Sequence record: NC_070872.1
DNA: 64,000 nucleotides
Direction: 5' to 3' (one strand)
Source of the DNA: Escherichia phage U1G
Shown: piece by piece, positions 11,824 through 63,800 of the stretch
Layout: every line of letters begins with the position of its first letter
Position numbering within the stretch: position 1 is the stretch's first letter
Made by a program: the position numbers and the translations under genes
Notes under the pieces: generated by a model
Told to the model about the DNA's origin: nothing
The model's input: the letters and a program-made list of their open reading frames with translations, nothing else
The model's database searches: none

Positions 11824-12998
11824 ATGAACCAGATACCTCAGCACACACTTAGTGATGAACAACTCATGCGTGAGTATGACCGTATTCAGGCGCAGGCATT
11901 TCTCGGACGTAGTGCAGCATTTTTTGGTTCATTACTGTGTAGTCTTAAGTTCTCATGGAAACGTGAAGACTGCCCCACTGCATGTACTGATGGAATAGAA
12001 CTCCATTTCAACCCAGACTTCTTTATCTGGATGTGTCCAGATGCAAGAGAAACAGTGCTAATGCACGAACTCTGGCATGTGGCATATCTGCATGGCATCC
12101 GTCGTGGAAGCCGTGACCCAGAGGTCTGGAACCAGGCATGTGACCACTTCATTAATCTTCAGTTAGAAGAAGATGGATATAAGTTCACTGGTATCGACAA
12201 AGGCATTTGCAAAGACCCTCAATACAAAGGGTGGGTCGAAGAAGACATCTACGATGACCTGATGAAGAACCCTCAGAAAAGGCAGAAGCCGTCAGGGGTG
12301 CTGGAGCAGGTCTTGCTGGTGACATGAAATCTCCCACTTCGGGGCAGTCCCAGGGTGCTGTCGTCAACAACGTAGTACGAGCAATGCAGAGCCAGAAAAT
12401 GGCTGGTGGACAGATGCCCGGTAAGGGTGCTGGTCGTATGGAAGAGGTTATTACCCAATTCCTTAAACCAGTGGTTCCATGGCAGGAAGTCCTCATGAAC
12501 TTCTTTACCGACATTGACGATACTCATTATACGTGGGCCAGACCTAACCGTCGTTTTACTGACATCTATCTACCTTCCATGGAAGATGATGAAGGACGCT
12601 TACGACACTTAGCCTACTTTGAAGATGTATCTGGTTCTATTAGTAGTGCAGATTCTCTGCGATTTAACTCAGAGGTTGCCTACGTTAAGAGCCAGTTCAA
12701 TCCTAAGAAGATGTCCCTAATTACCTTCGACGATATTATTCAAGAAGAGATAGACATCACTGAAGAAGATACTTTTGAAGAGATTAAGATTACTGGTCGT
12801 GGTGGTACAAACCTGGAACCAGTACGTGATTGGATTATTAAGAATAAGCCAACCGCTGCAATCATATTCTCTGATATGTATGTTCGTCCTATGGAAGAAT
12901 TACCATTTGATATTCCTATCATCTGGTGTGTTCTGAATAATCCCAATGCTACCGTACCTTTTGGGGAGGTAGTTCATATCCCTAAAGGAATGAAATAA
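11824..12998 (+). CDS. putative metallopeptidase + vWA-domain protein (DUF2201-like MoxR partner); two ORFs in this assembly
   Basis: HELWH (HExxH) in N-part; MIDAS-like DVSGSIS in C-part; the second frame is open from 12258 with a Gly-rich linker; +1 nt at A4 (12277-12280) or G4 (12295-12298) fuses the ORFs. Confidence 0.5.
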
Positions 12999-13504
12999 TG
13001 GTTGTTAATGGTAATTCTCTATACTGTTCATCTCAGTTGCTGGATATCCCAGACCGCAAGATATCAGAGCACGGTGTAAGCTATGGATTGGGTGAAGCTG
13101 GTTACGATATTCGTATCAAACAAGATATTACCTTCTATCGCTTATTTGGGTTGATTCCAATGGTGAAGGTCGTTGATGGAAACAAAGTATCACGCCATCT
13201 CGGTAAATTCACCTTGGCTTCAGCAATTGAGAAGTTCAACATGTCTCCGTCCTGCGTAGCCATCGTTCATGATAAGTCTACATGGGCAAGACGTGCATTA
13301 TCAGTGTTCAATACCGTAATAGAACCAGGATGGAAAGGGTATCTTACCCTCGAACTGGTCTACCATGGTCGTAAGAAATTGCATATCCCGGCTGGTGCTG
13401 GGATAGCTCAAGTATTATTTCATCTGGTTCAGGAACCTGCTAATTACAATGGCAAGTATCAGAACCAGGAAGATAAACCAGTAGCTGCTAGAAGCAGTAA
13501 ATAA
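12998..13504 (+). CDS. dCTP deaminase/dUTPase-superfamily protein
   Basis: KSTWARRAL and IEPGWKGYLTLEL resemble dCTP deaminase motifs. Confidence 0.45.
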   Translation: MVVNGNSLYCSSQLLDIPDRKISEHGVSYGLGEAGYDIRIKQDITFYRLFGLIPMVKVVDGNKVSRHLGKFTLASAIEKFNMSPSCVAIVHDKSTWARRALSVFNTVIEPGWKGYLTLELVYHGRKKLHIPAGAGIAQVLFHLVQEPANYNGKYQNQEDKPVAARSSK

Positions 13505-13513
13505 GGAAAACCC

Positions 13514-13723
13514 ATGTCAGTATTTCAAGTAACTCATGCAACCTCAGAAGTACGCTTAACTATTAATGCTGCAAATGTAATTGCGGTGGAACAGATTCCA
13601 CTGTCTGATTGTGCACGTATTGTATTTGTAAATGATAGTGCTATGGAAACCAAAGAAACCTATCGTTCAGTACGTAATTATCTGAAGAAAGCTCTTGCTC
13701 CTGCAAGTAAAGATGCTGAGTAA
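13514..13723 (+). CDS. hypothetical protein
   Basis: ORF. Confidence 0.5.
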   Translation: MSVFQVTHATSEVRLTINAANVIAVEQIPLSDCARIVFVNDSAMETKETYRSVRNYLKKALAPASKDAE

Positions 13724-13735
13724 GTAGCTGCCTAA

Positions 13736-13761
13736 ATAGCCCAGCATAGTTGGGCTATTTG
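13736..13761 (+). terminator. putative terminator
   Basis: atagccca-loop-tgggctat followed by TTGTG (weak T tract). Confidence 0.35.
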
Positions 13762-14039
13762 TGAAGAAACTAACTCAACCCCACATAGGAACCATCATGG
13801 AATCTTTAGCAGCAATCCTTGTTTTCTTATTCATATTAGCTGTATACCTCATCCCTACTATCATTGCTTTTGCACGAGGCCATGCCTCCAAGTGGGGAAT
13901 TGGTGTGCTCAATATTGTATTAGGCTGGTCTTTAGTCTTCTGGGTAGTAGCACTCATTTGGTCACTGTCCAACAAAGGTCAGAACCAAGTTACAAACGTA
14001 ACTGTTGTTCAAACCAATGGTGGCAGTAAAGCGGAGTAA
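13761..14039 (+). CDS. membrane protein (two TM helices)
   Basis: LAAILVFLFILAVYLIPTIIAF and LNIVLGWSLVFWVVALIW. Confidence 0.55.
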   Translation: MKKLTQPHIGTIMESLAAILVFLFILAVYLIPTIIAFARGHASKWGIGVLNIVLGWSLVFWVVALIWSLSNKGQNQVTNVTVVQTNGGSKAE

Positions 14040-14114
14040 CTAACCTAAGCATCATTGCATAGTGGTGCTTGTGGAAGTTACTTCCAGCTCATTGCTTATC
14101 CATCTCCTAACCCA

Positions 14115-14141
14115 AGCCCACCTAACCCGTGGGCTTTTTTA
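14115..14141 (+). terminator. rho-independent terminator
   Basis: agcccac-loop-gtgggct followed by TTTTTT. Confidence 0.55.
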
Positions 14142-14156
14142 TTTACAGGTACTGTT

Positions 14157-14387
14157 ATGTTTCAAAATAGACGAGGTAAATCAGTCCTACATGATATGGA
14201 CTTTAGTAAGCTGGAAGAAAGGCTAATTGCACACGCAGGCATTCATGACTCAGTAGATGTTACTGTTTCTAAGGTTGAATTAAAGAATCTGGAGAATATG
14301 CTCTCCAAGATGAAACAAACATTAATTCATGGATGGTCAGGTAGGCAGGTATTTGTTGATACTTACATTCCCCGGAACCTCATCTGA
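14157..14387 (+). CDS. hypothetical protein (start after the terminator; longest ORF begins 14055)
   Basis: Terminator sits inside the 5' part of the longest ORF; internal ATG follows it. Confidence 0.4.
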   Translation: MFQNRRGKSVLHDMDFSKLEERLIAHAGIHDSVDVTVSKVELKNLENMLSKMKQTLIHGWSGRQVFVDTYIPRNLI

Positions 14388-14553
14388 AATCTAAGGTAGA
14401 CAGGATCATAGATAAGTTCTGGCTTAACCCATGCGGCGATGATACACAACTTTACCTGGCTCAAATACAAAAGAATCCACGTACTAAGGATGTATTCAAA
14501 GGAAAGAGCACTACTCATCATTACCCCTGGTATAGAAGAGGTAGTAAATACTA

Positions 14554-15941: not shown

Positions 15942-15954
15942 TACAGTAAACCTA

Positions 15955-15981
15955 AGACCTCCTCCGGGAGGTCTTTTTTGG
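15955..15981 (+). terminator. rho-independent terminator
   Basis: agacctcc-TCCG-ggaggtct followed by TTTTTT. Confidence 0.6.
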
Positions 15982-16008
15982 TTTCAATTAACTCTTTTGG
16001 GAGGGCAT

Positions 16009-16730: not shown

Positions 16731-16773
16731 TAGTCATAACCAAGAAGCAACATTTAATCTGGAGAGTAAATAA

Positions 16774-21864: not shown

Positions 21865-22233
21865 GAATATTAGTACCCAGATTGGTTGTCATCTGGAAGA
21901 AGTAGTAGAGATGCTAGACGAGTTATACGCTAACTCAGAAGATGCTTACGATATTCTTCACAATGCCATTGCAGCATTAACCGAATTGTCTGATTTAATG
22001 AAAAAGATGACAAAGAGGTATATGCACCGAACAGCCATCGTTTAGCTATCCTTGATAGTCTTGCTGACCAGATTGTTACAGCAACCGGCGTCGGTACTTT
22101 CCTTGGGATGAATGTCCCTGGAGCATTGAATGAAGTCAATCGCTCTAACTATTCTAAATTTGAAGATGGAGAACCTGTCTTCAATGAGAACAAGAAAGTC
22201 ATGAAGGGTAAAGACTACACTCCCCGGATTTAA
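21788..22233 (+). CDS. putative MazG-like NTP pyrophosphohydrolase; two frames in this assembly
   Basis: EEVVEMLDEL motif; C-terminal part EVNRSNYSKFEDG in the adjacent frame; +1 nt in A5 (22001-22005) fuses them. Confidence 0.35.
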
Positions 22234-22245
22234 CCTCATTCGTAT

Positions 22246-22268
22246 AGCCCCAGTAGGGGCTTTTCTTC
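22246..22268 (+). terminator. putative terminator
   Basis: agcccc-AGTA-ggggct followed by TTTTCTTC. Confidence 0.5.
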
Positions 22269-24627: not shown

Positions 24628-26442
24628 ATGCGTTACATCACCTCTCAGGATACTGGTAAGTATCCTATTGCTATCCTCGGTCATCAAATCCGAAGGGAGG
24701 AGATGATTAAAACCTATCTGCTGCCTTATGACCTAAGTATGGAAGACTTCATCTTTATTGAACTTCATTCTGCCCCCGGCAAGAAAACTCCTGCAAGAGA
24801 GATTAAGGAGTTCATACAGCAGGAACTGCAACAAGTACTGGATGATGCAGAGACTCAATACATTATCTGTACCGATTCTGACTACTTCAAAATACTGACT
24901 AAAGAAGCTAAAGCAGAGGCTAACCTCGGCTATGTTTGTGACTCAGTATGGGGTAAGCAGAAGGTTATCTATGCACCTAGCTACAGACAGGTCTTTTATG
25001 ACCCTCCTGTAGTGAAATCCAAGATTGCTCAGGGTATGGATGCATTACTTAACCACATACGTGGGCAGTATGCTGAACCAGGTCAAGGAATCATTGAGTT
25101 TGAAGCCTATCCGGATACTCCCGAGAAGATTAAAGCCTGGCTAGACCAGTTGCTTGAGATGAATAAGCCATTGGCTATAGACATCGAAGCATTCGGTTTA
25201 AAGCACTATAACGCCGGTATAGGGACAATTACATTCTGTTGGAGTAAAACACAAGGCATAGCCTTTAACGTGGACTACGAGCCGATTCCTGGAGCTACTG
25301 AAGCACCATACGGGCGTATCAACCGTAATGATATTGTTCGAAACCTTCTGCGTGAGTTCTTCATTAAGTACACCCAACGGCAGATGTATCACAACATTAG
25401 CTATGATGTGTACATACTTATCTATCAGTTATTCATGGATAATCTGATTGATACAGAGGGACTACTACATGGCATGGACATCATGCTGCGTAATTGGGAC
25501 TGTACTAAGTTAATCACCTATCTGGCTACTAACAGTTGTGCAGGCAATCATCTTAGTCTAAAAGAGCAGGCTCAGGAGTATGCTGGTAACTATGCTCAGG
25601 ATGATATCAAAGACATACGTCTTATTCCTAATGAGCAACTGTTACGCTACAACCTCATTGATGGTTTGTGTACTTGGTACACATACGAGAAGCACTGGGA
25701 TACTCTCATTGCCGATGACCAACTTGATGTTTACAACAGCATCTTTAAACCAGCCTGTGAAGACATTATTCAGATGCAGTTAACCGGTATGCCCATGAAT
25801 ATGGAAACCGTTAACCAAGTAGCTGAAGAAATGGAAACTGACAGGAACCAGGCTCTGAAAACTATTCGTGAGTCTAACCTCATGAAGAACTTTACCCTGA
25901 TGCTTCGTCAGGAATGGGTAGACGATAAGAATGCTAAGCTTAAGAAGAAGCAGGTAACACTAGCTGATTGTGACATTGAGTTTAATCCTAACTCTGGCCC
26001 ACAACTACAGAAGCTGTTATTTGACTATATCGGCTTACCGGTTCTTGGTCTTACTAAGAGCAAGCAACCTGCTACTGACGGTGACACTATTAAAGCACTG
26101 CGTACACATACGCAGAGTGAAGATGTTAAGGAACTGCTCAATGCACTTATCGACTATAAGCTCGTGGATAAGATTATCACTAGCTTTATACCAGCTTTCA
26201 GGAATGCCCAACCGGGACCAGATGGCTGGCACTACCTGTTCGGTAACCTCAATCTGGGAGGCACAGTCTCCGGTAGGTTATCGGCTTCAGAGCCAAATCT
26301 ACAAACAATTCCATCCGGCTCTAAATATGCCAAGAAGATTAAGAAATGCTTCGAAGCTCCACCTAGTTGTTACTTGCCAAACAGGACCAAGCTGGATACA
26401 TTAATCCAGTCCCTGAAAAATACAATTAGTGGTGCCAAATGA
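24628..26442 (+). CDS. family A DNA polymerase, N-terminal fragment (3'-5' exonuclease plus part of polymerase domain)
   Basis: Exo I AIDIEAFGL; GTVSGRLSASEPNLQTIP and KKCFEAPP just before the break. Confidence 0.75.
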   Translation: MRYITSQDTGKYPIAILGHQIRREEMIKTYLLPYDLSMEDFIFIELHSAPGKKTPAREIKEFIQQELQQVLDDAETQYIICTDSDYFKILTKEAKAEANLGYVCDSVWGKQKVIYAPSYRQVFYDPPVVKSKIAQGMDALLNHIRGQYAEPGQGIIEFEAYPDTPEKIKAWLDQLLEMNKPLAIDIEAFGLKHYNAGIGTITFCWSKTQGIAFNVDYEPIPGATEAPYGRINRNDIVRNLLREFFIKYTQRQMYHNISYDVYILIYQLFMDNLIDTEGLLHGMDIMLRNWDCTKLITYLATNSCAGNHLSLKEQAQEYAGNYAQDDIKDIRLIPNEQLLRYNLIDGLCTWYTYEKHWDTLIADDQLDVYNSIFKPACEDIIQMQLTGMPMNMETVNQVAEEMETDRNQALKTIRESNLMKNFTLMLRQEWVDDKNAKLKKKQVTLADCDIEFNPNSGPQLQKLLFDYIGLPVLGLTKSKQPATDGDTIKALRTHTQSEDVKELLNALIDYKLVDKIITSFIPAFRNAQPGPDGWHYLFGNLNLGGTVSGRLSASEPNLQTIPSGSKYAKKIKKCFEAPPSCYLPNRTKLDTLIQSLKNTISGAK

Positions 26443-27095
26443 TAGGAAAGAAATTTAATAGATTGACTGTAGTCAGGTTCAGTCACAAAGACAAATACTA
26501 TGCAAAGCATTGGGAATGCCTTTGTGACTGTGGGAATACTACTATAGTCAACAATCAAAAATTAAAGAGTGGTCATACAAGAAGTTGTGGATGTTTACAC
26601 AAAGAATGCCTACGTAACTATAAAGATGGTCGTTCTAAGGAACTACTATATAAGGTTTACTACGGCATCCTTGACCGCTGCCATAATGAAAAGTGTTCCA
26701 CTTATTACAAATATGGGGCTAAGGGCATAAGTGTTTGCGATGAGTGGAAAAATTCATACGAAACTTTCCGAGATTGGGCATTATCTTCTGGTTATGCAGC
26801 AGGTCTTAGTATCGACAGGATTGATGCCTATAAAGGATATTCTCCAGACAACTGTAGATGGGCAAATAGAAGTACCCAACAAACTAACAAAAGGGTTTGG
26901 AGTACAACTCCTTACGTTAGCTACAGTAAGTCAAAAAATAAATGGGTAGGTAGAATTACCCATTTGGGTAAGAGAATAGAAATCCGGGTAGATAGAGATC
27001 TAGATACTGTTATGAATGCAGTTATTGCTTATGTATTAGCTAATAACTTGGTTGAACAGGAGAAGGTACTTCGTAATGCAGGACTTATTAAATAA
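26439..27095 (+). CDS. free-standing homing endonuclease-like ORF (Zn-ribbon plus AP2-like domain) inserted in the DNA polymerase gene
   Basis: FNRLTVV...WECLCDCGNTTIV...GHTRSCGC pattern, C-terminal NKWVGRITHLGKRIEIRV; ATGA overlap with the polymerase N-fragment stop; different frame from both polymerase parts. Confidence 0.6.
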   Translation: MIGKKFNRLTVVRFSHKDKYYAKHWECLCDCGNTTIVNNQKLKSGHTRSCGCLHKECLRNYKDGRSKELLYKVYYGILDRCHNEKCSTYYKYGAKGISVCDEWKNSYETFRDWALSSGYAAGLSIDRIDAYKGYSPDNCRWANRSTQQTNKRVWSTTPYVSYSKSKNKWVGRITHLGKRIEIRVDRDLDTVMNAVIAYVLANNLVEQEKVLRNAGLIK

Positions 27096-28047
27096 ATTAG
27101 TTAGCATAAAGGATAGAGTAACCCTGGATGACTATGACGAGTTAATACAATTAGCTAGTAAATATGGCATGCAGGAACAAGTATCTGAATGCTTTGACTA
27201 TGAGGGTGGATGGTTGTTTTGTGGGCTAGACTTTGCGTCCTTAGAGGATCGCATATCAGCCCTAACAACCAAAGACCCTAATAAATTGCGTGTGTATACT
27301 GACGGGTTTGACGGTCATTCACTCAGAGCTAAATTTTATTTCGGTGAACAAATGCCGGATATTGATGACTCTGTAGAAAGCATCAACTCTATACAGAAAA
27401 AATATAAAGCCTTACGTAGCGAATCGAAAGCACCTACTTTCTTACTGACCTACGGCGGAACTTATATGGGCTTAATGAAAAACTGTGGCTTCTCGGAAGA
27501 GAAGGCTAAATTAATTGAGTCCAGATACCACGAAATGTATACGGTTAGTGATGCCTGGGTTCAGGCTAAGCTAGACGAAGCTGCTAAGACTGGTTATGTA
27601 ACTGCTGCATTTGGTTTGAGAGTGCGTACTCCTTTACTGGCTCAGGTTTTACGTGGGACATGTAAGACCCCATATGAAGCAGAAGCTGAAGGCAGGACTG
27701 CTGGTAATGCATTAGGTCAAAGCTGGTGTCTACTGAATAATCGTGCTGGCTCAGAGTTTATGCGTAAAGTCAGAACCAGTGAGTTCAGATTAGATATACG
27801 TCCTTGTATTCACATTCATGATGCCCAATACTTCATGATTCGTGACAACATGGATACCTTGCAGTACACGAACAAGCACTTGGTTGAAGCCGTTAACTGG
27901 CAAGACCATCCTGATATTGCTCATCCAGAAGTTGGTTTGGGTGGGGAACTATCCTTGTTTTACCCAACGTGGGCTAACGAGATTGAAATTCCAAATCACG
28001 CTACCCCAGATGAAGTTCATCAAATAATTCAAAAGGCATTCGCATGA
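27076..28047 (+). CDS. family A DNA polymerase, C-terminal fragment (palm/fingers)
   Basis: Motif A LDFASLEDRISAL, motif B KAPTFLLTYGGTYMG, motif C IHIHDAQYF; AGGAGAAGG upstream of ATG 27076 (longest ORF starts TTG 27052). Confidence 0.7.
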   Translation: MQDLLNKLVSIKDRVTLDDYDELIQLASKYGMQEQVSECFDYEGGWLFCGLDFASLEDRISALTTKDPNKLRVYTDGFDGHSLRAKFYFGEQMPDIDDSVESINSIQKKYKALRSESKAPTFLLTYGGTYMGLMKNCGFSEEKAKLIESRYHEMYTVSDAWVQAKLDEAAKTGYVTAAFGLRVRTPLLAQVLRGTCKTPYEAEAEGRTAGNALGQSWCLLNNRAGSEFMRKVRTSEFRLDIRPCIHIHDAQYFMIRDNMDTLQYTNKHLVEAVNWQDHPDIAHPEVGLGGELSLFYPTWANEIEIPNHATPDEVHQIIQKAFA

Positions 28048-46300: not shown

Positions 46301-48080
46301 CTTCCATTTGAACGTTAGGGTCTTCAGCAGTATTAACCAGGTCAGCCATCTTCTGAATAGCTTCAACACGGTTAGTGGAACCAGAAACAGCTTCACGGAT
46401 TGCTGGGTTAGCTTGTTCCAGTTCTACTGGGTCAAACTTCATTGCCTGAGTTAAGTCAGCAGCATACTGGGTAGCAGCAGCTTTCTCTTCAGGGGAAATG
46501 TCCATTGCATCTACTGCTTCCTGTACAGTTTCTTGTGCTTGCTCTGCCTGAGCAGTAGCTTCTTGTGCAGCAGCATTAACCGTAGCATCTGATACAGGAG
46601 ATGCTTGTTCATTACGCTTAGCAACTTCTTCACCACGTTGAACCAGAATGTTAGTAATAGGAGAGGCTACTTTTGCTAGTGCCTTACCAGCCAGAGAAGC
46701 ACCAGCCAGGGTAGTACGTACAGCAGGACCAACGGCAGCACCAGCAGCCTTAACAGTTGCACCAGGAGCTTGAGCAACTCCAGCAGAACCAAAGCCGTAC
46801 AGTGCACCAAGACCTGCTTGTTCACCGACACCTTTAAGCAAATCACGCTTAGCATCTACATTACCTTGAATTGCTTTATTCTGTGCAAACTGACTAGTAC
46901 CAGACTGAATACCTTCTTCTACGGTTTCACGGAGCATGTTAGAGCCAGCACCAGCCAGTGAACCTACCTTAAGTGGGTTAAGTTCAAATTTGGATACCAG
47001 TGGACCAGTAGCAGCAGCAACTGGAGCAGTTAATCCAGCAGCAATGATACCTGTTTCAGATGCAGTCTGACGACGTGCTTCTTCAGGAGATAAGCCATCT
47101 TTAATATGTTGTTGGTATACAGGAGATTTGGCAGCCAGTTCACTAAATGGCATTTCCATAATTTCATTAGCAGTCTGTTGGTATGCACCACCTGCTTCCA
47201 TGCCACCAATTGCAATAGCAGGTGCAGCAACACGACCAGCAGACAATGCAACCTGTGCAGGACGAGAACCTAATTCAGCAGCTAAGGTAATACCTTTAAC
47301 AGCTTTATCTCCACCTACCATTACTTTGCCAAGTGCAGATACACCACGGATAAGAGGACCACCAGTAAACAGAGAACCAACACCTTCACTCAGCCCGTCA
47401 GAAGCAGCCATACCATTATCAAGTGTATTAGCAACAGAATCAAAAGCATCACGACCAATGCGAGACAGAGAGGCAACCAAACTGCTCTCCCCATTTTTAA
47501 TGTCTTCTTCATAGAGTTTCTGGTTCTTTTGTGCAGAAATCTGGTTCTGATTCTGAACAACCTTACGGGTAGCATTCAGTGCATCAGACTGTAGGTTGTG
47601 TACACCTTTGTTCAACCAGTCAAGACCGGAAGCAATGGTTGCCCCGGCATTATCATTGACCAGACCTGTGCCAAGAGCAGCAATACCCCCAAGGGTATTA
47701 GCAACACCAAGACCAACACCAGAAAGAGTATCGCCAAATGCTTCTGCGTTAGTACGTTGTTTAGATAAGTCCTGACGTACAGCATCAGCAGCATTAGCTC
47801 GGCTATTAAGAATCTGTAGACCTTGCTCATTACCATATTTATTAAGAATTTCTAATGGGGAGGCTTGAGTGAAATCTGCCTGAAGTGAACCTGGTTCGAA
47901 TGCACCGATTCCAAGATTACCTACACGACCAGTTTGGAGATTGTAAGCATTCTCTGGGGTTAATTGGAAAGGGCTTTGCCCTTGTGCAGCTTGCTTCTGA
48001 GAGGTTGCAGTAGAGACATCGACTTGCTTAGCATTAGTGATGCTGTCTGCGAAACCTGCCAGACGGTCAAATGTTGACAT
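37326..48080 (-). CDS. virion-encapsidated RNA polymerase (giant vRNAP, N4 gp50-like)
   Basis: ~3584-aa ORF at the promoter-distal end of the late operon; size and position match the N4 vRNAP; ATG 48080 preceded by AGGAAA (longest ORF starts TTG 48098). Confidence 0.75.
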   Translation of the reverse strand: MSTFDRLAGFADSITNAKQVDVSTATSQKQAAQGQSPFQLTPENAYNLQTGRVGNLGIGAFEPGSLQADFTQASPLEILNKYGNEQGLQILNSRANAADAVRQDLSKQRTNAEAFGDTLSGVGLGVANTLGGIAALGTGLVNDNAGATIASGLDWLNKGVHNLQSDALNATRKVVQNQNQISAQKNQKLYEEDIKNGESSLVASLSRIGRDAFDSVANTLDNGMAASDGLSEGVGSLFTGGPLIRGVSALGKVMVGGDKAVKGITLAAELGSRPAQVALSAGRVAAPAIAIGGMEAGGAYQQTANEIMEMPFSELAAKSPVYQQHIKDGLSPEEARRQTASETGIIAAGLTAPVAAATGPLVSKFELNPLKVGSLAGAGSNMLRETVEEGIQSGTSQFAQNKAIQGNVDAKRDLLKGVGEQAGLGALYGFGSAGVAQAPGATVKAAGAAVGPAVRTTLAGASLAGKALAKVASPITNILVQRGEEVAKRNEQASPVSDATVNAAAQEATAQAEQAQETVQEAVDAMDISPEEKAAATQYAADLTQAMKFDPVELEQANPAIREAVSGSTNRVEAIQKMADLVNTAEDPNVQMEAAIQMYDNIMSMDSFINRDPGALANLEQGSHAANIVDQFSGLMANVQNTPKVLRAFRAIHSMIQEQAEAGKLKATEEANQTQANNIAMAADMSPEVLDADSVNMVLKHASEGKITLGNRQRAALQSAAALLQGAREFDAKAEELGLRPQDIVSKQIKTDESRSNEGQYSALQHAKRIRSAYNSGNFDLASAYLDDFMKFAQHMQNKVGALNEHLISGNADKNKSVHYQALTPSREWVRSRTGLGVNPYDTKSVKFAQQVGLEAKTVADIANALATAYPELNVSHVKVTPLDSRLDKPAAQVVKEFRQGGLDATQSQQTNEPVNQVDETPVMKQEPVTSTVQTKPSVSEAVKTESTIKESKPQSVKEPENQSEKQDTDVQSTESERDAYVKENTISQDTLNKYGDRKESPWLFADGTVVGSNGDHISLSDVFGHDGYRDMSLDTGAIRSTFYKGSEQPFVSLQLFDNQKLTPEQFNTVQSFVEANNALIQIGVDTSGRNTNNVEKIEVSLAQLKADYTVGGKPLSQMETVFPVYNNDKTPNQFLKAFTLPEESKSRTIGSESPLTDVKKALSSAARFEAFTQKENNALTSDVIKRYQDLFDFGETLKTTLSDRLAKFLANKNVGKRFAEGTEANRWVGGKLLNIVEKDGDTFKFNDQLLETAVLAGLQWRLTATQNAAVKDMKDVAAITGVEASLLPEGILAEFENAQTLVEATNSLAQKIESYWGLDRNPNAPLGYTKGIPMAMATEILSSLIEMGEVKESMLDVSEIDPDSNKTIGLYTIEKLDDNDAINKFPTAIEEAVLVEPEEKMYFGDDIPSVAQTQLRNPAVKNTPEQKAALKAEQATEFRVHMPMVNFYEALGRDNILELMGAGTLNPELLNVNTAKSLEGKNLSVSMAYDSLFGVINQLQEQENGLDTPIHYGYNMTRVGRMQMLGKNNPQSSKLVREAILPTFSTIDLSNENSQTFSDFQLGLAQALGIKVHNMSREAMSEKLTKALEGNLKPAVDMMVEFDKSGHLPANAVDILKTSLGGDKSFVALMALMEYARYLNSDDRANFNTPLYVEADGVTNGPINAMVLMTGGRFTSDWIKNTAKGGLFFGKAGKTMNEHRSQDDSVDLYEASTNGLQQALNELRTTYRNNVPVMNQMNHLQKLMDLFIKDFNLNEDGTLDLKRGIAKNPLTITIYGSGARGIAGKMVSAITDTIYERFSDVLQARAADPSISPAMAMFGKEAASEADAQAMLDTFLTSMEALTGNVPVMRKGQLSIQQVEGALTGKLDPQKFTVSGNALKNLQENMLHLFVEPMRTGIRNTVGEGLMHSTENLQKATQIQSLVLQDMFQQAVQAKLAEKEKDPTWKKGDFLTQKELNEIQESLSPLAPMIETGSQTFYIAGSENTDVANQVLATNLDDRMRVPMSIYAPSQAGVAGIPFMTIGTGDGMMMQTLSTMKGAPKNTLKIFDGMNIGINNITDASRKANEAVYTSWQGNPIKNVYDSFSKFMKNVDFSKLSDETKQAIAKSALEYDQREGATDDLLRIGAEQIERNLRNIALGVDIRHKVMNQVQTTVDQMAAVGAPYVNNGKISLEGLTVDQQVAKLNELFDAELNKRRDAVRAAKAEPVKEVPAMEQVGRVLKSGVRLLSNTAISKLAKEMSPEQQAVLKEVQKSLAAKDYKVVYGTPSQLDAYAIEKNITRPAPEDIEAAEAGNAYGWTNFEDKTIYLVTPSLETLVHELVHASTFESVLAHYEGTPNEAVQNIEDLMNQFRALDVKDESPAVREAYADALNTINGHLSNGFIEPAMAKAAALNEYMAWGLTNRELISKQKKTTALKTMVQAVYEAIKRLVFGRKKAPANADDMFSGLLFNSAVVMRGQAPTAAVAKDTTLFHNKAYGDNTRLEELGKTFDKLITDYIGSEPVQQVIRKGKFSDAVVNATKVTRDVQAHGFTMNMQEQRLFTNIVAALATEAAINPAALARAQEYYTHVTKNLTVEAFMADPDSTNPADRYYAQQKFDTIMGANNIEFDAQGRSSLLPTFVGLAMVSEEVRKVLADIPVMKADKQSGNTVDAMLTNIGTAAMASLNARVAGDTKATNVQEGMDALAQTIMQTSLNAQSFYDSVATPSGNAIDRANQYLVDSIDVLSTRALEGAREVAANTKNPLVKGAAHAAQLIAAIATEKNGEIVAEGVMAAMNQGKVWQPFHDLVNDLTGRTKSNASVYDLIKAVRAQVQADRQQFREHLPTTIASKFSRKLTNDEWKAMHTGMGKTDLAVLRDTMSLAEIRDLLTDQKIVDREVNKLEADLQKQAGRNWPLISRKSKQLAQYMINGTVGNNLLRNATAISRMLGERQSARSTVDVAQLDKLITLYALEAMSKTDREMLSSLAQTETEGMDFATSYLVGQRKDEMAKAKSDTRATLNQYKGYIPGETKQGVNLIVAEDSQFADLIEKSYVRLGTYQGSSANRGPARSYYFAPVQAQAPFSQGILQNVRNTAGGVDLGTGFTMGTMVAGRITDKPSVDRITKALARGERGNEPLLPVYDANGNVVAYEQSIDPNMLKHIEGENHLARAIGVWRGRQVEEAKAQRFNDMLIENLHSMYENDIKMSVSNKSQYVNLLGSKLDPVTADALKLMNSETRQKAESLFGPGELWVRRDMLNDALGYRAASVGDAWSGNSRWSPETLDTFKKAMLGVFGNRAYKYVMGGENLVQNLVKEAKTLIVVKSVVVPAVNFLANLYQMVARGVPVKNIAKSIPQKTAEINQYLKSRLRQVDAEAELRAATNPNQIRKLKAEIQSITDSHKRMSIWPLLEAGEFSSIADAGIGRDDILITEGKLHEYMDKLADKLPKSVRNAGRYALITKDTALFQGIQKTVEYSDFIAKAIIYDDLTQRKGKTREEALGRVTEEFINYDRLPGRFRGYMESVGLMWFYNFKIRSAKIAVSMIRNNPVHAAMAILAPTPTMFGNVGLPIQDNIFSIAAQGNLGYSWGFGQGLRAHNLNPWLNLTN

Positions 48081-48142
48081 AGCATGTTTCCTGTTCAAAC
48101 TTATATCGTATATAGGAAGCTTACTCTACAGTAAGCCTGTGT

Positions 48143-48174: not shown

Positions 48175-50138
48175 TTACCGATTTTGTCTTGGTTGCATAT
48201 ACTCAGGCAAACCTTGTGCCTGACGTAGGTAACGTGCAGCACGTTCTTCATCTTCCTTGGCTCGTGCTCTGTCCACACTAGCCTGTGACCGAAAACCTCT
48301 TGGAGCCAGGTTATCTGGGTCTGCTTGTACTTGGGCTTGTGCAGCTTGTAGCATTGCAGCAGCTTTAGTAACAGCCTCCTGACGAGCAGGTAACAATGCA
48401 GTAAGACCTGTTTGTCCAGTGTTAATCTTGTTCTGGGTATTTGTCAGTGCAGCTACAGCAGCATCATAAGCAGTCTGTGCTGCCTGAATATTCTGCATAG
48501 CTTGAGCACGTCCGAGATTACGTACACTGCCTTCCAGTGGTTCGCCTCGTTGTACACCCTCAATTAACTGATCTACCAGACGGTCATTAAGACGCATACC
48601 ATTACCAGCTTCATTAGTAATGAATGGGTTAACTGCATCAATAGCACGGCTAATGTACCCTTCTGGTACACCGGTCTGTGCACGTTGCATAACAGCAGCA
48701 GCCATAGCTGGTGACATATTTCCACGTTGAGAAATATCAGTTAGTCGGTTAAGTACCCAGTTACGGTCAGCACCCTTAAAGTCACCATCCAGTAGACGAT
48801 TAGCAATCTCACCTACTGGAGTATTATCGGTAACAGTACCCAGGAAATCGGTATTAAGACTACCAGTGTTATCCTGCATAGAACGAGTACCAATCATACC
48901 TTGAGCCAAGGTAGATACTGCCCGATTTCCCTGATTATTCTGAATCAGAGCGAATGGGTCAGCACCTACTTCAGCTTGAGCAATAACAGGTTTAATCTGT
49001 TCCCAAGTCATATCCTTATAAGCACCTGGGGTAGAATTAGGTAAAGCAGCCCAGGTATCTTTAAGGTTACCATTCTTACGAGCCTCAAAAATAGCCTTAC
49101 CAATCTTCTCCTGGTTTTCAGGGGAAAGAGGCTGATTCTTCCAATCTGAGCCAAGAACTTTGGGAGCAAAGTCTTGCAGAGTAGCCTGGTTAATCTGGAA
49201 TGCACCAACAGGGGAAGCACCTTGATTTGTCTTCATGACATCCTGGTGTTTAATTACATCACCTATACTCATTTGAGTAATAGGGGTAGATGTACCAGCA
49301 AACTGATAAGTAACATCATAAGGAGAACCCTGACGAGTACCAGCAGTACCAGGAGCAGATGTAGCACCAACATTATTGCCGTAAACACCAGGGTATGCAC
49401 GAGCAAGCATTTCCTGTAAACGTGCCTGAGCAACTGGAGACAGATTCTTACTATATGCTTCTGCTAACAAACGAGCATCATTAGGGTTCTCAGCACCACG
49501 GGTAATTTGAGACATCACACCCATAGCTGCCTGACTATCAGCATCATTACGTTGAGCCACACCCAAATCAAAACGGTTCTGTGCTTGGTTAATAGCCTGA
49601 CCACCCTGCCCTTGTAGACGACTTAACATATCCAGTTGTTGGTCAGCAGGTAGTGCAGATAACGCTTCTCGCGTCTGACCCAATGCAGCATTAATACGAT
49701 TCTGGTCACCAGACTGATAAGCCTCGGACAATAAACGAATAGCTGGGGATGCATTATCTAATGCAGAGTCAGTATTCTGTAAGCGACCAAAACGATAAGC
49801 ATTATAGTCATTGGTTCCCTGCTGACCTTGTTGAGTCAGAAGAGTACCTGCTCGTTCATCCAGATTCTGGAGAGTACGCTGACTTACCAATGAAGGGTCA
49901 ACCCCTGAAACAATGCACCAGATGCCAAAGCATTACGATACTCAGTAGGGTCTTGATACTGCATAGCATTCATCATGACGGCATTGCCAGCCTCCTGCTT
50001 GGCAGCGTTCTGGAAATTACCCAGTGCATCACTTAAGCCGGAGGTGGCATTACCAATCATGTTGCCAAATGTGCGAATGCTGTCACCAACTCCGGAGAAG
50101 TTAGGTGCATAAACATTACGCCATGTAATTTGAGCCAT
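48175..50138 (-). CDS. internal virion protein (N4 gp51/52-like); two ORFs in this assembly
   Basis: 571-aa ORF has only a TTG start with no SD and 7-nt overlap with the 84-aa ORF; +1 nt in C4 (49902-49905) fuses them (~654 aa). Confidence 0.45.
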
Positions 50139-57686: not shown

Positions 57687-57699
57687 GTGAAGGTCTGCC

Positions 57700-59970: not shown

Positions 59971-59972
59971 AG

Positions 59973-60479
59973 TTATTCCTGTTCAAAAAGTTTACGGTCA
60001 GCCTGAATCTGTTTACCCAACTCAATTAGTTGGCTGTCACGGAGTCTAACAGTTGCCCGGAGTTCTTCAACCAAACGTCTGCCTTCTTCAAGACTGCTGT
60101 CGAGTTTGGCTGCATGGCTTGCAAGACTTCTGCACTCAAGGGTTCCGGCTTCGGCTTGACGTTTATATACCGATGCTCGTCTTTCAGACTGTTGCATCCG
60201 GCTGTCATAATCACTGCTAACGCGAGCAAGCTCGCTTGCGTAATTACTCTCAGCCGTCTGCAACCGAGAAGTGAGTAACCCGACTTCATAACTATGGTTT
60301 CTTTGGAGAGCATCGTATTTGTCCTGTAATTTTTGTATTGCCTTTTGGTCTTCAACCTTTTGGTTATCCCACTTCTTTTGAACAGTAGACTGCCCATTGG
60401 AATTACCCCAAAAGTAAATGGTGGCCCCAAGGACCACCACCAGAAGATAAGGCCAACCTTTAGAGATTAGCATCTTCAT
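59973..60479 (-). CDS. i-spanin (Rz-like)
   Basis: N-terminal [18 protein letters not shown] then charged coiled-coil-like domain; overlaps the muramidase 3' end. Confidence 0.5.
60026..60289 (-). CDS. putative o-spanin (Rz1-like), embedded in the i-spanin gene
   Basis: Alternate-frame ORF with hydrophobic signal-like segment ending TAGC followed by Pro-rich tail; lipobox atypical. Confidence 0.3.
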   Translation of the reverse strand: MKSGYSLLGCRRLRVITQASLLALAVIMTAGCNSLKDEHRYINVKPKPEPLSAEVLQAMQPNSTAVLKKADVWLKNSGQLLDSVTAN

Positions 60480-61094
60480 TACATGCCTCCAGTGGCACAT
60501 TGCCTATTCGGTTAGCTACCCAACCATACGTAAAGTCTGGCATGTTTAATGAGGTATAGTGGTTTAGTTGTTTAGCATCAAGCAGCTTAATCATTACCTG
60601 ACATGCTGCAACTTTGCCTCGTTTTTTCTGTAATGCTTTATAAGCATTAACAGTACTTGCACCGACTTTACCATCAACCTGTATTTTAGGGTAGTCTTTG
60701 CCATCACGGGACATTTCATTAAGGGATAACTGCAACCACTTAGCCGGACGGGTTACACCAGTATTAACACCAGCATCTACCAGCTTATGCGTTACAGCAG
60801 GAGATATATCAGCGAAGGCTACGAAGTTAGGCTTAAGTACGTAGTCATCAATGTATATCTCAGCAGCCATCTCCTTAGATAAACCTTTCATAGAACCACC
60901 CCAACCATATTCAGTAGCCAGAACCTCCTTATGAGACTTAGCTACCGATTGGGTAATACCATGATTAGTTTCCCCACCTGGGTCACGAGGATTGTTTACA
61001 TAACCCCTTCCATATAGAACACTGCCCCCAGGATAGCAGCGACAACCCCTCCCACTGCACCACCTTTTGCAGCAAGTTTCTGTTTAGCTTTCAT
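60460..61094 (-). CDS. GH108-type N-acetylmuramidase endolysin (N4 gp61-like) with signal-anchor-like N-terminus; frameshifted in this assembly
   Basis: YVNNPRDPGGETNHGITQ GH108 motif; SD-preceded ATG 61094 encodes MKAKQKLAAKGGAVGGVVAAILGAVFYMEG in another frame; +1 nt in C4 (61004-61007) fuses them. Confidence 0.6.
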
Positions 61095-61476
61095 GAGAAT
61101 TTTCCTTTGGACGGAACCGTATTAATCTGCCTATGATGTTTAAGGCAAACAGTGCGATTGCAATATTGGAACCATGGGGAATATCTTCCAGGATGTGACG
61201 AGGTAATCCTGTCACCATTGGTTGGATGATATCTACAGCAGAAAATAGAATTAAACCAAACGTACTAATTTGAACGGATGCCCACTTCCAGGACTTCTTC
61301 CAGTTAGGTACTAACTCAAACTTTCTTTTAGCCTGCGAACCATGCGAATATCTCCCGTCTTGCAGCAGCCAATACACCAATAATTGCACCTGCTCCAGCC
61401 CATACCCACTTACCGAAAATTCCAGCACCAACAACTTTATGCTTAATGGTGATGAACTCTTCAATAGTAGGCTCAT
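61084..61476 (-). CDS. putative lysis-associated membrane protein (holin candidate)
   Basis: Two predicted TM helices in the C-terminal 80 aa; N-terminal 50 codons overlap the upstream ORF. Confidence 0.3.
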   Translation of the reverse strand: MSLLLKSSSPLSIKLLVLEFSVSGYGLEQVQLLVYWLLQDGRYSHGSQAKRKFELVPNWKKSWKWASVQISTFGLILFSAVDIIQPMVTGLPRHILEDIPHGSNIAIALFALNIIGRLIRFRPKENSHES

Positions 61477-61657
61477 TTTTAGCTAAACTATCCTCCACAT
61501 TTTTCAGTCTATTACCTATGTCATTGATTGAATCCCGCAGTTCTCCTAGAGTTTCCTCCAGTTTCTCACGGTCCTGTCTGTCTCTTGTCTGGTTCTCAAA
61601 CAGAGTCTTCAATCGTTCCTCCAGTCTGACTAGAAGCAGTTCACCCGATTCATTCAT
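61328..61657 (-). CDS. putative membrane protein with N-terminal coiled coil and C-terminal TM (holin/antiholin candidate)
   Basis: C-terminal VVGAGIFGKWVWAGAGAIIGVLAA. Confidence 0.3.
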   Translation of the reverse strand: MNESGELLLVRLEERLKTLFENQTRDRQDREKLEETLGELRDSINDIGNRLKNVEDSLAKNEPTIEEFITIKHKVVGAGIFGKWVWAGAGAIIGVLAAARREIFAWFAG

Positions 61658-61880
61658 AATATTACCGTAGTTGTAAAGTTAAGAACCCCTATGGGGTCGT
61701 ATCATAAGATGACTCTTAGATAATACTTAGTATGCTGAAATACATCCAGACAAAGAGACGAGCAAAACCTGTGCTTTGTAGAAAGGGCATCATTGGATAT
61801 ATTCAATACCCTATGGGGGAGAGTTACCCTAACCATTTTTACAGTTAGAGCAATGGAATCAGCAAACACTAATGGGTTTG

Positions 61881-61909
61881 GTAGTGGGGTACTAAATTTA
61901 CCCCACTAC
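61881..61909. other. 9-bp stem hairpin after the tailspike stop
   Basis: gtagtgggg-loop-ccccactac; no clear U tract. Confidence 0.3.
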
Positions 61910-61915
61910 CTAAAT

Positions 61916-63800
61916 TTACTGCTTCAAGCCATATACAATAATATCTGCACCTAATGTAGTCCACGCTTCGTCACCACGAGAACTTGCGCAGTTAACCGTA
62001 AACCCAGAAGGGGTTTGGTTAGTAACGCTAAATACAGGGGCAATACTCTGCAATGCACCAATACCCCCATTAAAGGTTACGGCTACACGATAATCCAGTA
62101 AGTTAATAGGTAGTGTTACTTCAGTACTACCAGCGGAACCAGTAGAGCGGGTGATAGATATACCCTTACGATAGATGAATTGCCCATTACGCAAACCAGA
62201 TAAAGTGGTGTTATCGGAGAGTGAGTCCACAATATCCCCAGCAACAATACCAATACCAGTTAAATCAGTATTAGTAATGATTCGTACACCACCTTCCTTG
62301 GTTCTTTCTAGTACCCTGGTTCCAGAAGCCAGACTGTATTTACCAGTTAATGTACTACGACAGGTAACGTTAGTAAGGTCAAAATAGTTATTAGAGCTGC
62401 TGGCATCATTAATAAGGTAAGAGAAGTTAACACATCGCACATTACTCATAGTAATTTGAGAATCTGAACCCTTACTTGAAACATCTACAAGATAGGGGTA
62501 TTGGCTGTTTGGTATGGAGGGTAATTACCCGCATGATAATTAGAAATACCTAATGCAACCCTACCATCTATGTAGATAGCAGAACCCGTTCCTGTATTTT
62601 CAGAACCACAATTATGCATACTAATGCTTCGGGTATCTGTAGTAGCGTTATCACCGGAACCACCGCCAAATACATAACTCCAGCGGGTAGTATGGTCGCA
62701 TGCACAATCAATAATTGAACTATAGCCACTAGCTAAGTAGTAACCACGATTAGCATAATCAACATAGCATTCTTTTATGTAGGTACTAGTACCGTCTTGG
62801 ATATAGAACCCGGTATCCGTACAGTTACGAGCAATACACCGGGATATACGTTGAATCCATGAACCTTTATCAAATATACCAAACTTATAACCTTCAAAGA
62901 GGCAATCTGATACGTAACTGTTCTCCGTTATACTAAAATAGATACCGTAGTCAGCATTGACTGTAGTTGTAAAGCGAATACCTGAAATACGAGCATACTT
63001 ACTCTGATTAGTATCTGTTAGTACAACAATAGCAGCATTTACGTTAACATCCACCCCGTAAGCATCTGGCTCAGTTATACCTGTCTTAGCTAAGGTAGTT
63101 AATTCAATAATTGCATTACCACCTTGTCCTTCAATTTCATAGTTATAAAAGCCTAAATTGCGATACAACAAGGGTTTAGTAATAATGTACTTCTTGGATG
63201 GAATCACCAACTTAGTTCGATTCAGTTGACAGTAATCCATTGCTGCTTGAATGGCTTCAGTATCATCAGTAACACCATCCCCCATAGCACCAAATACTTG
63301 CGGGGTAACATAGTGTATATACTTATTAAGTAGTTCCTCTTTCAGGTATGCGTCGGATATAGCAACCCAATTAGCATCCCCAACAGGGGATGATCCAGGA
63401 GCTACAGTAACGGGTAGTGCACCCTGGTAGGTGTATCCAGTACCATTGTAAACGAGTATGTCATTCTTAGTATTTACTATGGAACCGGTGGAGAACGTGC
63501 CAGGTAGGGTAGTATACTCCCCCTGCTTTTCCCAAGTTCCCCCAAATCAACAGTACCTGCTGAATGAACCAGGATTGCTTGTTCATTCAGGCTTACAGCA
63601 GTGGTTCCTACCGGGAGTACGGGCAAAGAGTAAGCACGCTGAGTAGTCTTATCATAAATGACCTTGTATTCCCCTAAGTCTACACCTACAGCAAAGTAAA
63701 CAACCTCATTCTGCTTAACTCCAAAGTGACGGGCTACTGCTTGTTTGTTGGTTAAGATTCCAGTGGAACCTTTACCACCTTGTGAGAACATTTCGTTCAT
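61916..63800 (-). CDS. tailspike/tail fibre with pectate-lyase-like beta-helix; three ORFs in this assembly
   Basis: AAGAGG SD before ATG 63800; GDGVTDDTEAIQAA beta-helix signature; +1 nt in C5 (63519-63543) and in G4 (62495-62498) gives one ~628-aa ORF. Confidence 0.55.

What the first reader, a model, noticed from the sequence alone, without database searches (positions are those of the whole stretch)
11824..63800. Recurrent single-nucleotide frameshifts at short homopolymers break at least seven genes
In every case adding one nucleotide to an A4-5, C4-5 or G4-5 run restores a full-length ORF with a sensible domain order: DUF2201-like (12258-12327), MazG-like (22001-22005), AAA_24 ATPase (32817-32821), SSB-like (33300-33311), gp51/52-like (49902-49905), GH108 muramidase (61004-61007) and tailspike (62495-62498 and 63519-63543). 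The uniform direction (always one base missing) is the signature of homopolymer under-calling in the assembly, not eight independent programmed frameshifts.
Basis: seen in the sequence. Interest (0 to 1): 0.6.

Follow-up and report, generated by a model that had tools for sequence, protein, structure and literature searches.

The report
Nanopore homopolymer errors break phage genes
The broken genes are not biology: this is the nanopore-only, unpolished genome of coliphage U1G, where one base is missing at 13 places in 11 genes, and the deposited record and a published receptor prediction inherit the resulting fragments.

Summary
The window is the first 64 kb of Escherichia phage U1G (GenBank MZ394712), a G7C/N4-like Gamaleyavirus. 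Its paper states that it was sequenced only on an Oxford Nanopore MinION (Guppy, Canu 1.8, 39x), and no polishing step is described. All eight listed sites are confirmed. An unbiased scan adds five more, giving 13 one-base deficits in 11 genes, plus two likely ones in non-coding DNA. At every coding site all aligned relatives (1 to 14 per site) are exactly one base longer, and adding one base restores a full-length protein collinear with the relatives. Against the closest genome, runs of 3-4 are essentially untouched, while 11 of 77 runs of 5 or more are one shorter and none is longer, with a G/C bias. The hits include SSB, holin, endolysin, gp51 and the tailspike of a phage that forms plaques, so they cannot all be real. 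Slippery heptamers and conservation in relatives, both expected for programmed frameshifting, are absent. The fragments are annotated as separate proteins in GenBank and RefSeq. The paper's "107-aa tail spike" receptor-binding protein is the N-terminal stub of a 628-aa tailspike. This is an artefact with low biological interest but real value for curation.

The parts
12295..12298 (+). One-base deficit, G4 (relatives G5 or longer), splitting the gp25-like DUF2201_N/DUF2201 gene (11824-12998)
   Evidence: 6 of 6 relatives are one base longer. Adding G gives 391 aa, 384/391 identical to St11Ph5 gp25. Pfam DUF2201_N 17-253 and DUF2201 263-386. The halves are deposited as QXV71862.1 and QXV71863.1.
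14370..14373 (+).
   Evidence: 4 of 4 relatives are +1. The repair gives 119 aa, 119/119 identical to PGN829.1 gp08.
22001..22005 (+). One-base deficit, A5 (relatives A6), first of two hits in the gp36-like putative NTP pyrophosphohydrolase gene (21911-22247)
   Evidence: PBM-2, UE-S5a and phi G17 all have A6. With both repairs the protein is 112 aa, 109/112 identical to PBM-2.
22222..22225 (+).
   Evidence: 8 of 8 relatives are +1. It is needed to recover the last residues of gp36.
30215..30215 (+).
   Evidence: 4 of 4 relatives are +1. The repair gives 162 aa with HNH_3 and AP2. The protein is 145 aa in U1G and 162 aa in every other listed member of its 24-member cluster.
32817..32821 (+). 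One-base deficit, G5 (Bp4 has G6; others GGGGAG or GGGGTG), splitting the gp44-like AAA_24 / Sak4-like gene (32483-33234)
   Evidence: 4 of 4 relatives are +1. The repair gives 250 aa, 247/250 identical to St11Ph5 gp44. AAA_24 spans 14-218.
33300..33304 (+). One-base deficit, A5 (relatives A6), cutting off the first 9 codons of the gp45 SSB gene (33275-34071)
   Evidence: 4 of 4 relatives have A6. The repair gives 265 aa, 259 identical to St11Ph5 gp45. The deposited fragment is 213 aa, against 264-267 aa for nearly all other cluster members.
35370..35375 (+).
   Evidence: 4 of 4 relatives are +1. The repair gives 56 aa, 51/56 identical to St11Ph5 gp47.2.
49902..49905 (-). One-base deficit, C4 on the + strand (relatives C5), splitting virion protein gp51 (48175-50138)
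   Evidence: 4 of 4 relatives are +1. The repair gives 654 aa collinear with St11Ph5 gp51 over 1-648. The 84-aa N-terminal stub QXV71898.1 is a singleton cluster.
61004..61007 (-). One-base deficit, C4 on the + strand (relatives C5, C6 or CCTCC), splitting the gp61 GH108 endolysin (60460-61094)
   Evidence: 12 of 12 relatives are +1, including 7 metagenome assemblies. The repair gives 211 aa, 209/211 identical to St11Ph5. GH108 and PG_binding_3 are present.
61326..61329 (-).
   Evidence: 14 of 14 relatives are +1. The repair gives 86 aa, 76/86 identical to the St11Ph5 holin.
62495..62498 (-). One-base deficit, G4 on the + strand (PGN829.1 has G5), second break in the tailspike (61916-63800)
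   Evidence: With both repairs the protein is 628 aa, 622/628 identical to the PGN829.1 tailspike. It aligns in one piece to the ECML-4 tail fibre over 1-627. Cluster mates are 599-628 aa.
63519..63523 (-). One-base deficit, C5 on the + strand (PGN829.1 has C6), first break in the tailspike; creates the 107-aa stub ORF 63477-63800
   Evidence: The stub is QXV71913.1 'tail spike protein', a singleton cluster, with no Pfam domain. It is the '107 aa' RBP used in PMC10754912.
31..36 (.). Probable non-coding one-base deficit, C6 vs C7, at the left end of the genome
   Evidence: 4 of 4 relatives have C7. The site lies upstream of the first annotated gene in St11Ph5.
15974..15979 (.). Probable non-coding one-base deficit, T6 vs T7, in the T-tract of a terminator-like hairpin after the thymidylate synthase gene
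   Evidence: 5 of 6 relatives have T7. Only Bp4, itself an error-rich record, has T6.

Best explanation
The frameshifts are consensus errors of a nanopore-only assembly. The window is the deposited genome of Escherichia phage U1G, produced from MinION R9-era reads (SQK-LSK109, Guppy) assembled with Canu at about 39x, with no polishing described. Homopolymers of about five or more bases give an almost constant pore signal, so the basecaller and consensus systematically report them one base short. Each such deletion shifts the reading frame by -1. The annotation pipeline then called the pieces as separate small proteins. The real phage almost certainly carries intact genes. Shown here: the identity of the record, the sequencing method, the positions, direction and run-length dependence of the deficits, and the restoration of full-length proteins by single-base insertion. 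Inferred: that the reads themselves under-call these runs, since no reads are available, and the exact true base at sites where relatives are not pure homopolymers (30215, 32821, 35373).
For: Identity: ten exact window proteins, including broken halves, are U1G proteins QXV718xx-719xx on a 73,275-bp contig. Method: ONT MinION only, Canu v1.8, 39.12x; Flye polishing is mentioned only for the other two phages. Direction: 16 'missing' and 1 'extra' isolated 1-bp gaps against PGN829.1. At all 13 coding sites every aligned relative is +1, with 1-14 relatives per site, including short-read metagenome contigs. Length dependence: runs of 3-4 are unchanged apart from one 2-nt case, while 11 of 77 runs of 5 or more are one shorter and 0 are longer (p = 5e-16). 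G/C runs are hit in 8 of 22 cases against 3 of 55 for A/T (p = 0.0014). Repair: single-base insertions rebuild 11 full-length proteins, 88-100% identical to their closest relatives apart from the more divergent gp51, which is collinear over its whole length, with intact Pfam domains. Blind to coding: two further deficits lie in non-coding DNA. Biology: the phage forms plaques with a burst of 124, yet SSB, holin, endolysin, gp51 and the tailspike would all be broken. Fragments of 107, 177 and 84 aa are singleton clusters among about 15 billion proteins. Literature: homopolymer indels causing split annotations are described as common in long-read-only phage assemblies (PMC10438801).
Against: No raw reads could be examined, so the under-calling is inferred rather than observed. 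Only about 15 indel errors in 64 kb is cleaner than I would expect (my own expectation, not tested) from an entirely unpolished Canu consensus, so an unreported correction step is possible. One site (30215) is not a long homopolymer. At 32821 and 35373 the homopolymer reading needs an extra assumed substitution relative to most relatives. I cannot explain the G/C bias from the data here. The two tailspike sites rest on one relative at the DNA level.
Confidence: 0.95

Rival explanations
1. The deletions are real mutations, and U1G is a decaying or defective genome with 11 pseudogenes.
For: The sequence as deposited contains them. Polymerase slippage in short runs does produce real one-base deletions. 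A few small genes (gp28-like, gp47.2-like, the HNH homing endonuclease) are probably dispensable.
Against: The phage is lytic, was plaque-purified three times and has a burst of 124. Yet SSB, holin, endolysin, virion protein gp51 and the tailspike would be truncated within their first 10-160 codons. Direction is uniform and depends strictly on run length. No relative or metagenome contig shares any of the deletions. Apart from the deletions the broken reading frames are near-identical to relatives, with no stop codons or further decay.
Confidence: 0.03
2. These are programmed recoding events, with -1 ribosomal frameshifting or transcriptional slippage restoring the frame at each run.
For: A missing base needs a -1 shift, which is the common direction for programmed frameshifting. 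One site (gp47.2, 35369-35376) reads A_AAA_AAG in the correct frame, a known E. coli slippery heptamer.
Against: 11 of 13 sites have no X XXY YYZ heptamer within 40 nt, and most are G4/C4 runs that do not allow tandem tRNA re-pairing. Runs of 4-6 are short for efficient transcriptional slippage (established knowledge). Every relative encodes the same proteins in one uninterrupted frame, so no recoding signal is conserved. The same kind of deficit occurs in non-coding DNA. The gp47.2 heptamer is what an A7 run under-called to A6 would look like.
Confidence: 0.01
3. The window is correct and the relatives carry one-base over-calls.
For: Some relatives are themselves poor records. Bp4 shows 17 one-base deficits relative to the window and many split genes.
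Against: The n+1 state is shared by up to 14 independent records from different laboratories and platforms, including short-read metagenome assemblies. It is also the state that gives intact ORFs with complete domains.
Confidence: 0.005

Closest known systems
Homopolymer deletion errors in long-read-only (ONT R9-era) assemblies that split genes on annotation
   Same: Only deletions; confined to runs of true length 5 or more; hits coding and non-coding DNA alike; produces adjacent same-strand ORF fragments of one gene. It occurs in a genome stated to be MinION-only and Canu-assembled. PMC10438801 reports the same effect in phage assemblies, for example two homopolymer errors in a DNA polymerase giving three annotations.
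   Different: Nothing essential. The G/C-run bias (8 of 22 against 3 of 55) and one deletion inside CCTGG, a Dcm motif, are details that this analysis could not tie to a documented cause.
Escherichia phage PGN829.1 and other Gamaleyavirus (G7C-like, N4-like) genomes
   Same: Collinear gene order; 94-98% nucleotide identity to PGN829.1 over most of the window; the same tailspike (622/628 aa after repair); the same HNH insertions in the DNA polymerase and upstream of the primase; no tRNA genes.
   Different: Relatives have intact gp25, gp28, gp36, gp44, gp45, gp47.2, gp51, gp61, gp62 and tailspike genes. U1G additionally has an 882-bp homing-endonuclease insertion in gp24 (shared with NAN33P5) and a 29-bp insertion at 76-104.
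Programmed -1 ribosomal frameshifting (for example dnaX, or phage tail-assembly chaperone G/GT)
   Same: Two overlapping ORFs where the downstream frame is -1 relative to the upstream frame.
   Different: No slippery heptamer at 11 of 13 sites, no conservation in relatives, and the shift would have to be nearly 100% efficient in essential genes.

Membership tests
ONT homopolymer under-call artefact | Genome produced from nanopore reads without accurate-read polishing | tested here: met
   U1G = MZ394712. MinION SQK-LSK109, Guppy, Canu v1.8, 39x. No polishing or Illumina is described for this phage.
ONT homopolymer under-call artefact | Indels are overwhelmingly deletions | tested here: met
   16 missing against 1 extra isolated 1-bp gaps versus PGN829.1. 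All 13 coding sites are one base short against every relative.
ONT homopolymer under-call artefact | Errors concentrate in homopolymers and increase with run length | tested here: met
   0 of about 1695 runs of 3-4 are one base shorter, against 11 of 77 runs of 5 or more; C6 2 of 2, C5 4 of 12, G5 2 of 8. One exception lies outside a long run (30215).
ONT homopolymer under-call artefact | Errors are indifferent to coding potential and gene essentiality | tested here: met
   They hit SSB, holin, endolysin, gp51 and the tailspike as well as two non-coding runs.
ONT homopolymer under-call artefact | Accurate reads of the same DNA show n+1 | not testable with these tools
   No reads for U1G are accessible here.
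Programmed -1 ribosomal frameshift | In-frame X XXY YYZ slippery heptamer at the shift site | tested here: not met
   Absent at 11 of 13 sites. It is in frame only at gp47.2 (A_AAA_AAG).
Programmed -1 ribosomal frameshift | The two-frame arrangement is conserved in relatives | tested here: not met
   All relatives encode a single uninterrupted ORF.
Programmed -1 ribosomal frameshift | Downstream stimulatory hairpin or pseudoknot | not tested
   Not examined, because the first two features already fail.
Transcriptional slippage or phase-variable homopolymer tract | Long tract, typically 8 or more identical bases | tested here: not met
   The runs are 4-6 nt, and the longest run anywhere in the window is T7.
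Genuine pseudogenes | Confined to dispensable genes, with further decay (stops, mixed indels) | tested here: not met
   Essential replication, lysis and virion genes are hit. After a single-base repair the frames are 88-100% identical to their closest relatives, apart from the more divergent gp51, with no other lesions.
Gamaleyavirus (Schitoviridae, Enquatrovirinae) | Collinear N4-like genome with giant virion RNA polymerase and high nucleotide identity to genus members | tested here: met
   3590-aa ORF at 37326-48098. 90-98% identity and synteny with PGN829.1, St11Ph5, Bp4 and PBM-2.

The most novel reading that the evidence does not exclude
A minority of the deficits are real in the U1G stock. 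The best candidate is the gp47.2-like gene, where the deposited sequence creates an in-frame A_AAA_AAG slippery heptamer that could let E. coli ribosomes restore the frame by -1 slippage. Another candidate is the deletion inside the CCTGG motif of the HNH homing endonuclease, which may be a genuine inactivating mutation of a dispensable selfish gene.
Probability: 0.04. Interest if true: 0.25.

Novelty: not a real feature. Interest (0 to 1): 0.12.

Why it matters
There is no new biology here. The practical consequence is that a GenBank and RefSeq phage genome (proteins YP_0106597xx-8xx) carries at least 11 genes split into spurious fragments within these 64 kb. These fragments are already in UniRef and nr, several as singleton 'families'. 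The describing paper took the 107-aa N-terminal stub of a 628-aa pectate-lyase-fold tailspike as the receptor-binding protein for a machine-learning receptor prediction. That stub contains the particle-attachment end and none of the receptor-binding beta-helix.

Tried and rejected
(1) I guessed the window was phage IME11. That was wrong: IME11 is in the collection and is only about 82% identical in the gp36 region.
(2) An exact look-up of the portal protein in the contig index found nothing. The cluster look-up succeeded instead.
(3) I tested whether the deficit at 35567 hides a tRNA gene. ARAGORN finds none before or after repair, and none in PGN829.1, so the absence of tRNAs is genuine. Sites 35567 and 7294 agree with some relatives and were reclassified as natural variation.
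(4) I looked for a second nanopore error class, window-private substitutions at Dam (GATC) or Dcm (CCWGG) motifs. There is no enrichment (0 of 687 and 10 of 687; p = 0.63 and 0.35), and the substitution spectrum is symmetric and transition-dominated, so the substitutions look like real divergence.
A translated search of the phage collection served instead.
(6) Rfam at gathering thresholds found nothing in the window, so there is no recognisable group I intron around the homing-endonuclease insertions.
(7) Pfam gave no hit for gp36 or gp45 at E <= 0.01, so 'MazG-like' and 'SSB' rest on relatives' annotations.


Full report
WHAT THE WINDOW IS. The ORF map shows a 3590-aa ORF on the minus strand and the two-arm layout typical of N4-like podoviruses. 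Megablast against the phage collection puts the window in the genus Gamaleyavirus (G7C-like, Schitoviridae). The closest record is Escherichia phage PGN829.1 at 96-98% identity, and the window has the same orientation and left end as St11Ph5. Exact look-up of ten window-encoded proteins, including broken halves, identifies them all as proteins of Escherichia phage U1G on a 73,275-bp contig (QXV718xx-719xx; RefSeq YP_0106597xx-8xx, locus tags PP766_gpNN). The window is therefore the first 64 kb of the deposited U1G genome.

CHECKING THE OBSERVATION. I fetched complete genomes of PGN829.1, St11Ph5, Bp4 and PBM-2 and listed every alignment gap. Outside diverged patches, isolated 1-bp gaps against PGN829.1 are 16 'window missing' and 1 'window extra'. 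The extra one, at 37265, lies in a diverged non-coding stretch.

All eight listed sites are real. Their exact runs are 12295-12298 G4, 22001-22005 A5, 32817-32821 G5, 33300-33304 A5, 49902-49905 C4, 61004-61007 C4, 62495-62498 G4 and 63519-63523 C5.
- 14370-14373, C4, in the gp28-like gene
- 22222-22225, C4, a second hit in gp36
- 30215, G1 inside CCTGAA, in an HNH-AP2 homing endonuclease
- 35370-35375, A6, in the gp47.2-like gene
- 61326-61329, T4, in the holin

That makes 13 sites in 11 genes. Two more probable deficits lie in non-coding DNA, at 31-36 (C6 vs C7) and 15974-15979 (T6 vs T7). Sites 7294 and 35567, which differ from PGN829.1 only, agree with other relatives and are probably natural variation.

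REPAIR TEST. Inserting one base at each site turns the fragment pairs into single ORFs collinear with the relatives' annotated proteins:
- gp25-like: 391 aa, 384/391 identical
- gp28-like: 119/119 identical
- gp36: 112 aa, 109/112 identical to PBM-2; needs both repairs
- HNH-AP2: 162 aa
- gp44: 250 aa, 247/250 identical
- gp45 SSB: 265 aa, 259 identical
- gp47.2: 56 aa, 51/56 identical
- gp51: 654 aa, collinear over 1-648
- endolysin: 211 aa, 209/211 identical
- holin: 86 aa, 76/86 identical
- tailspike: 628 aa, 622/628 identical; needs both repairs

Pfam on the repaired proteins gives complete domains that the frameshifts cut through: DUF2201_N + DUF2201, HNH_3 + AP2, AAA_24, GH108 + PG_binding_3, and Tail_spike_N followed by a pectate-lyase-like beta-helix. 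The 107-aa tailspike stub has no domain.

BREADTH OF THE COMPARISON. Exact-protein look-ups brought in further independent loci, mostly short-read metagenome assemblies, and IMG/VR supplied three contigs carrying the HNH gene. At every one of the 13 coding sites every aligned relative is exactly one base longer than the window. Counts range from 14 of 14 (holin) and 12 of 12 (endolysin) to 1 of 1 (the two tailspike sites). Where relatives are not pure homopolymers (CCTCC, CCACC, TCTTT, GGGGAG, AAAGAAA) the length is still n+1, so what is conserved is the reading frame. For the tailspike, the repaired protein aligns in a single piece to the ECML-4 tail fibre (1-627, 54% identity) and to UTEC10 (96-627). 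Cluster mates of the 266-aa fragment are 599-628 aa.

ERROR PROFILE. I compared run lengths for all homopolymers with conserved flanks. Reference runs of 3 and 4 are unchanged in the window, about 1695 in total; the single exception is a 2-nt difference at 1238. Among runs of 5 or more, 11 of 77 are one base shorter and none is longer (Fisher p = 5e-16). G/C runs are hit far more often than A/T runs (8 of 22 against 3 of 55, p = 0.0014). Window-private substitutions, by contrast, are symmetric, transition-dominated and not enriched at Dam or Dcm motifs, so they look like ordinary divergence.

WHY IT HAPPENED. The U1G paper (PMC10754912) states that phage DNA was sequenced on an Oxford Nanopore MinION with the SQK-LSK109 kit. 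Reads were basecalled with Guppy, trimmed with Porechop, assembled with Canu v1.8 at 39.12x and annotated with RAST. Polishing (Flye iterations) is mentioned only for the two other phages, and Illumina was used only for the host.

Deletions in homopolymers are the characteristic residual error of such assemblies. A phage-assembly study describes exactly this, including a DNA polymerase split into three annotations by two homopolymer errors that was corrected only by short-read polishing (PMC10438801). The mechanism is therefore a constant pore signal within runs of about five or more bases, then a one-base under-call in the consensus, a -1 frame change, and the gene caller emitting two or three small ORFs. 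The under-calling itself is inferred, because no reads could be examined.

RIVALS.
- Real pseudogenes are implausible. U1G was plaque-purified three times and has a burst of 124, yet its SSB, holin, endolysin, gp51 and tailspike would all be truncated early. N4 gp45 SSB is required for replication and late transcription (established knowledge). Apart from the single missing bases, the frames show no other decay.
- Programmed -1 frameshifting fails its defining tests. 11 of 13 sites lack any X XXY YYZ heptamer, relatives encode single ORFs, and the same deficits occur in non-coding DNA. The one in-frame heptamer (A_AAA_AAG in gp47.2) is what an A7 run called as A6 would produce.
- The tracts, at 4-6 nt, are too short for transcriptional slippage or phase variation.
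- Errors in the relatives instead of the window are excluded by the number and independence of the n+1 records.

CONSEQUENCES. The fragments are deposited as separate proteins: for example QXV71862.1 + QXV71863.1 for gp25; QXV71913.1, QXV71912.1 and QXV71911.1 for the tailspike; and QXV71898.1 for the gp51 stub. Several are singleton clusters among about 15 billion sequences. [quoted passage not shown] It consists of residues 1-94 of the 628-aa tailspike plus an out-of-frame tail. It lacks the beta-helix that would bind the receptor.

REAL GENE SPLITS, FOR CONTRAST. Two other 'broken' genes in the window are genuine. gp24 ATPase is interrupted by an 882-bp insertion (10197-11078) carrying a NUMOD4-HNH-AP2 homing endonuclease. 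The insertion is shared with Gamaleyavirus NAN33P5, and the 224-aa C-terminal product recurs in many independent assemblies. The DNA polymerase is interrupted by an HNH gene, as in PGN829.1.

VERDICT. The finding is a sequencing artefact: it has no biological novelty but clear value for curation.

Noticed in passing
window 10197-11078 (flanked by ORFs 9882-10202 and 11142-11816): An 882-bp insertion splits the gp24 ATPase gene exactly, with no loss of gp24 sequence. It carries a NUMOD4-HNH-AP2 homing endonuclease ORF (10313-10882). It is also present in Gamaleyavirus NAN33P5 (94% identity), and the 224-aa C-terminal gp24 piece recurs in many independent contigs, so this split is real. Rfam finds no group I intron.
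   Followed up: partly
window 26364-27207 (HNH ORF 26439-27095): The DNA polymerase gene is interrupted by an insertion of about 844 bp carrying an ORF annotated as an HNH endonuclease in PGN829.1, where St11Ph5 has one continuous gp39. PGN829.1 has the same arrangement. Whether the two polymerase parts work as a split enzyme or are spliced was not examined.
   Followed up: no
window 76-104: A 29-bp insertion (GTGTGCTCTGCACACTAGCCTTCGGCTTA) is absent from all four relatives and from IMG/VR. It forms a 6-bp stem / 3-nt loop hairpin (GTGTGC-TCT-GCACAC) just upstream of a similar hairpin (ACATGC-TCC-GCATGT, about 112-126). From my own knowledge of N4, this looks like an N4-type early-promoter hairpin. 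It could be an extra promoter or an end-of-assembly artefact.
   Followed up: partly
L029 (OR061068.1, phage CR01) about 1830; OR061069.1 (phage M01) 24536-25771: The two other phages isolated on the same host in the same nanopore-only study carry a tailspike body homologous to U1G's (52-57% identity over residues 96/162-627). CR01's copy changes frame (frame 1 to frame 3, again one base short) near locus position 1830 and is annotated as fragments of 481, 38 and 62 aa. All three phages of E. coli U1007 therefore share a related tailspike head.
   Followed up: partly
L013 (CP043865.1, Enterococcus faecium chromosome record, 2711303-2732247): A 2.76-Mb E. faecium chromosome record contains a stretch encoding a PGN829.1-like coliphage (N4-like RNA polymerase, rIIA/rIIB, ThyX, tailspike). 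This is probably contamination or a chimeric assembly rather than a prophage.
   Followed up: no
whole window: GATC occurs 20 times against about 240 expected from base composition, a 12-fold depletion. CCWGG occurs 130 times.
   Followed up: no
L005/L006 (NC_024142.2, phage Bp4): Bp4 is itself an error-rich record. It shows 17 isolated one-base deficits relative to the window, and its gp53, gp51, rIIA, primase, DNA polymerase, gp25 and gp24 are annotated in pieces.
   Followed up: no
window 35500-36800: There are no tRNA genes in the window or in PGN829.1, whereas St11Ph5, Bp4 and PBM-2 carry 1-3 tRNAs in the corresponding region. Repairing the C-run at 35567 does not recover one, so the paper's 'no tRNA' statement holds.
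   Followed up: yes
window 1236-1238: A two-base deficit (TTA--TG against TAAATG in four relatives) lies immediately upstream of the gp2 start codon. It is non-coding and does not fit the one-base homopolymer pattern. It may be real or an error.
   Followed up: partly
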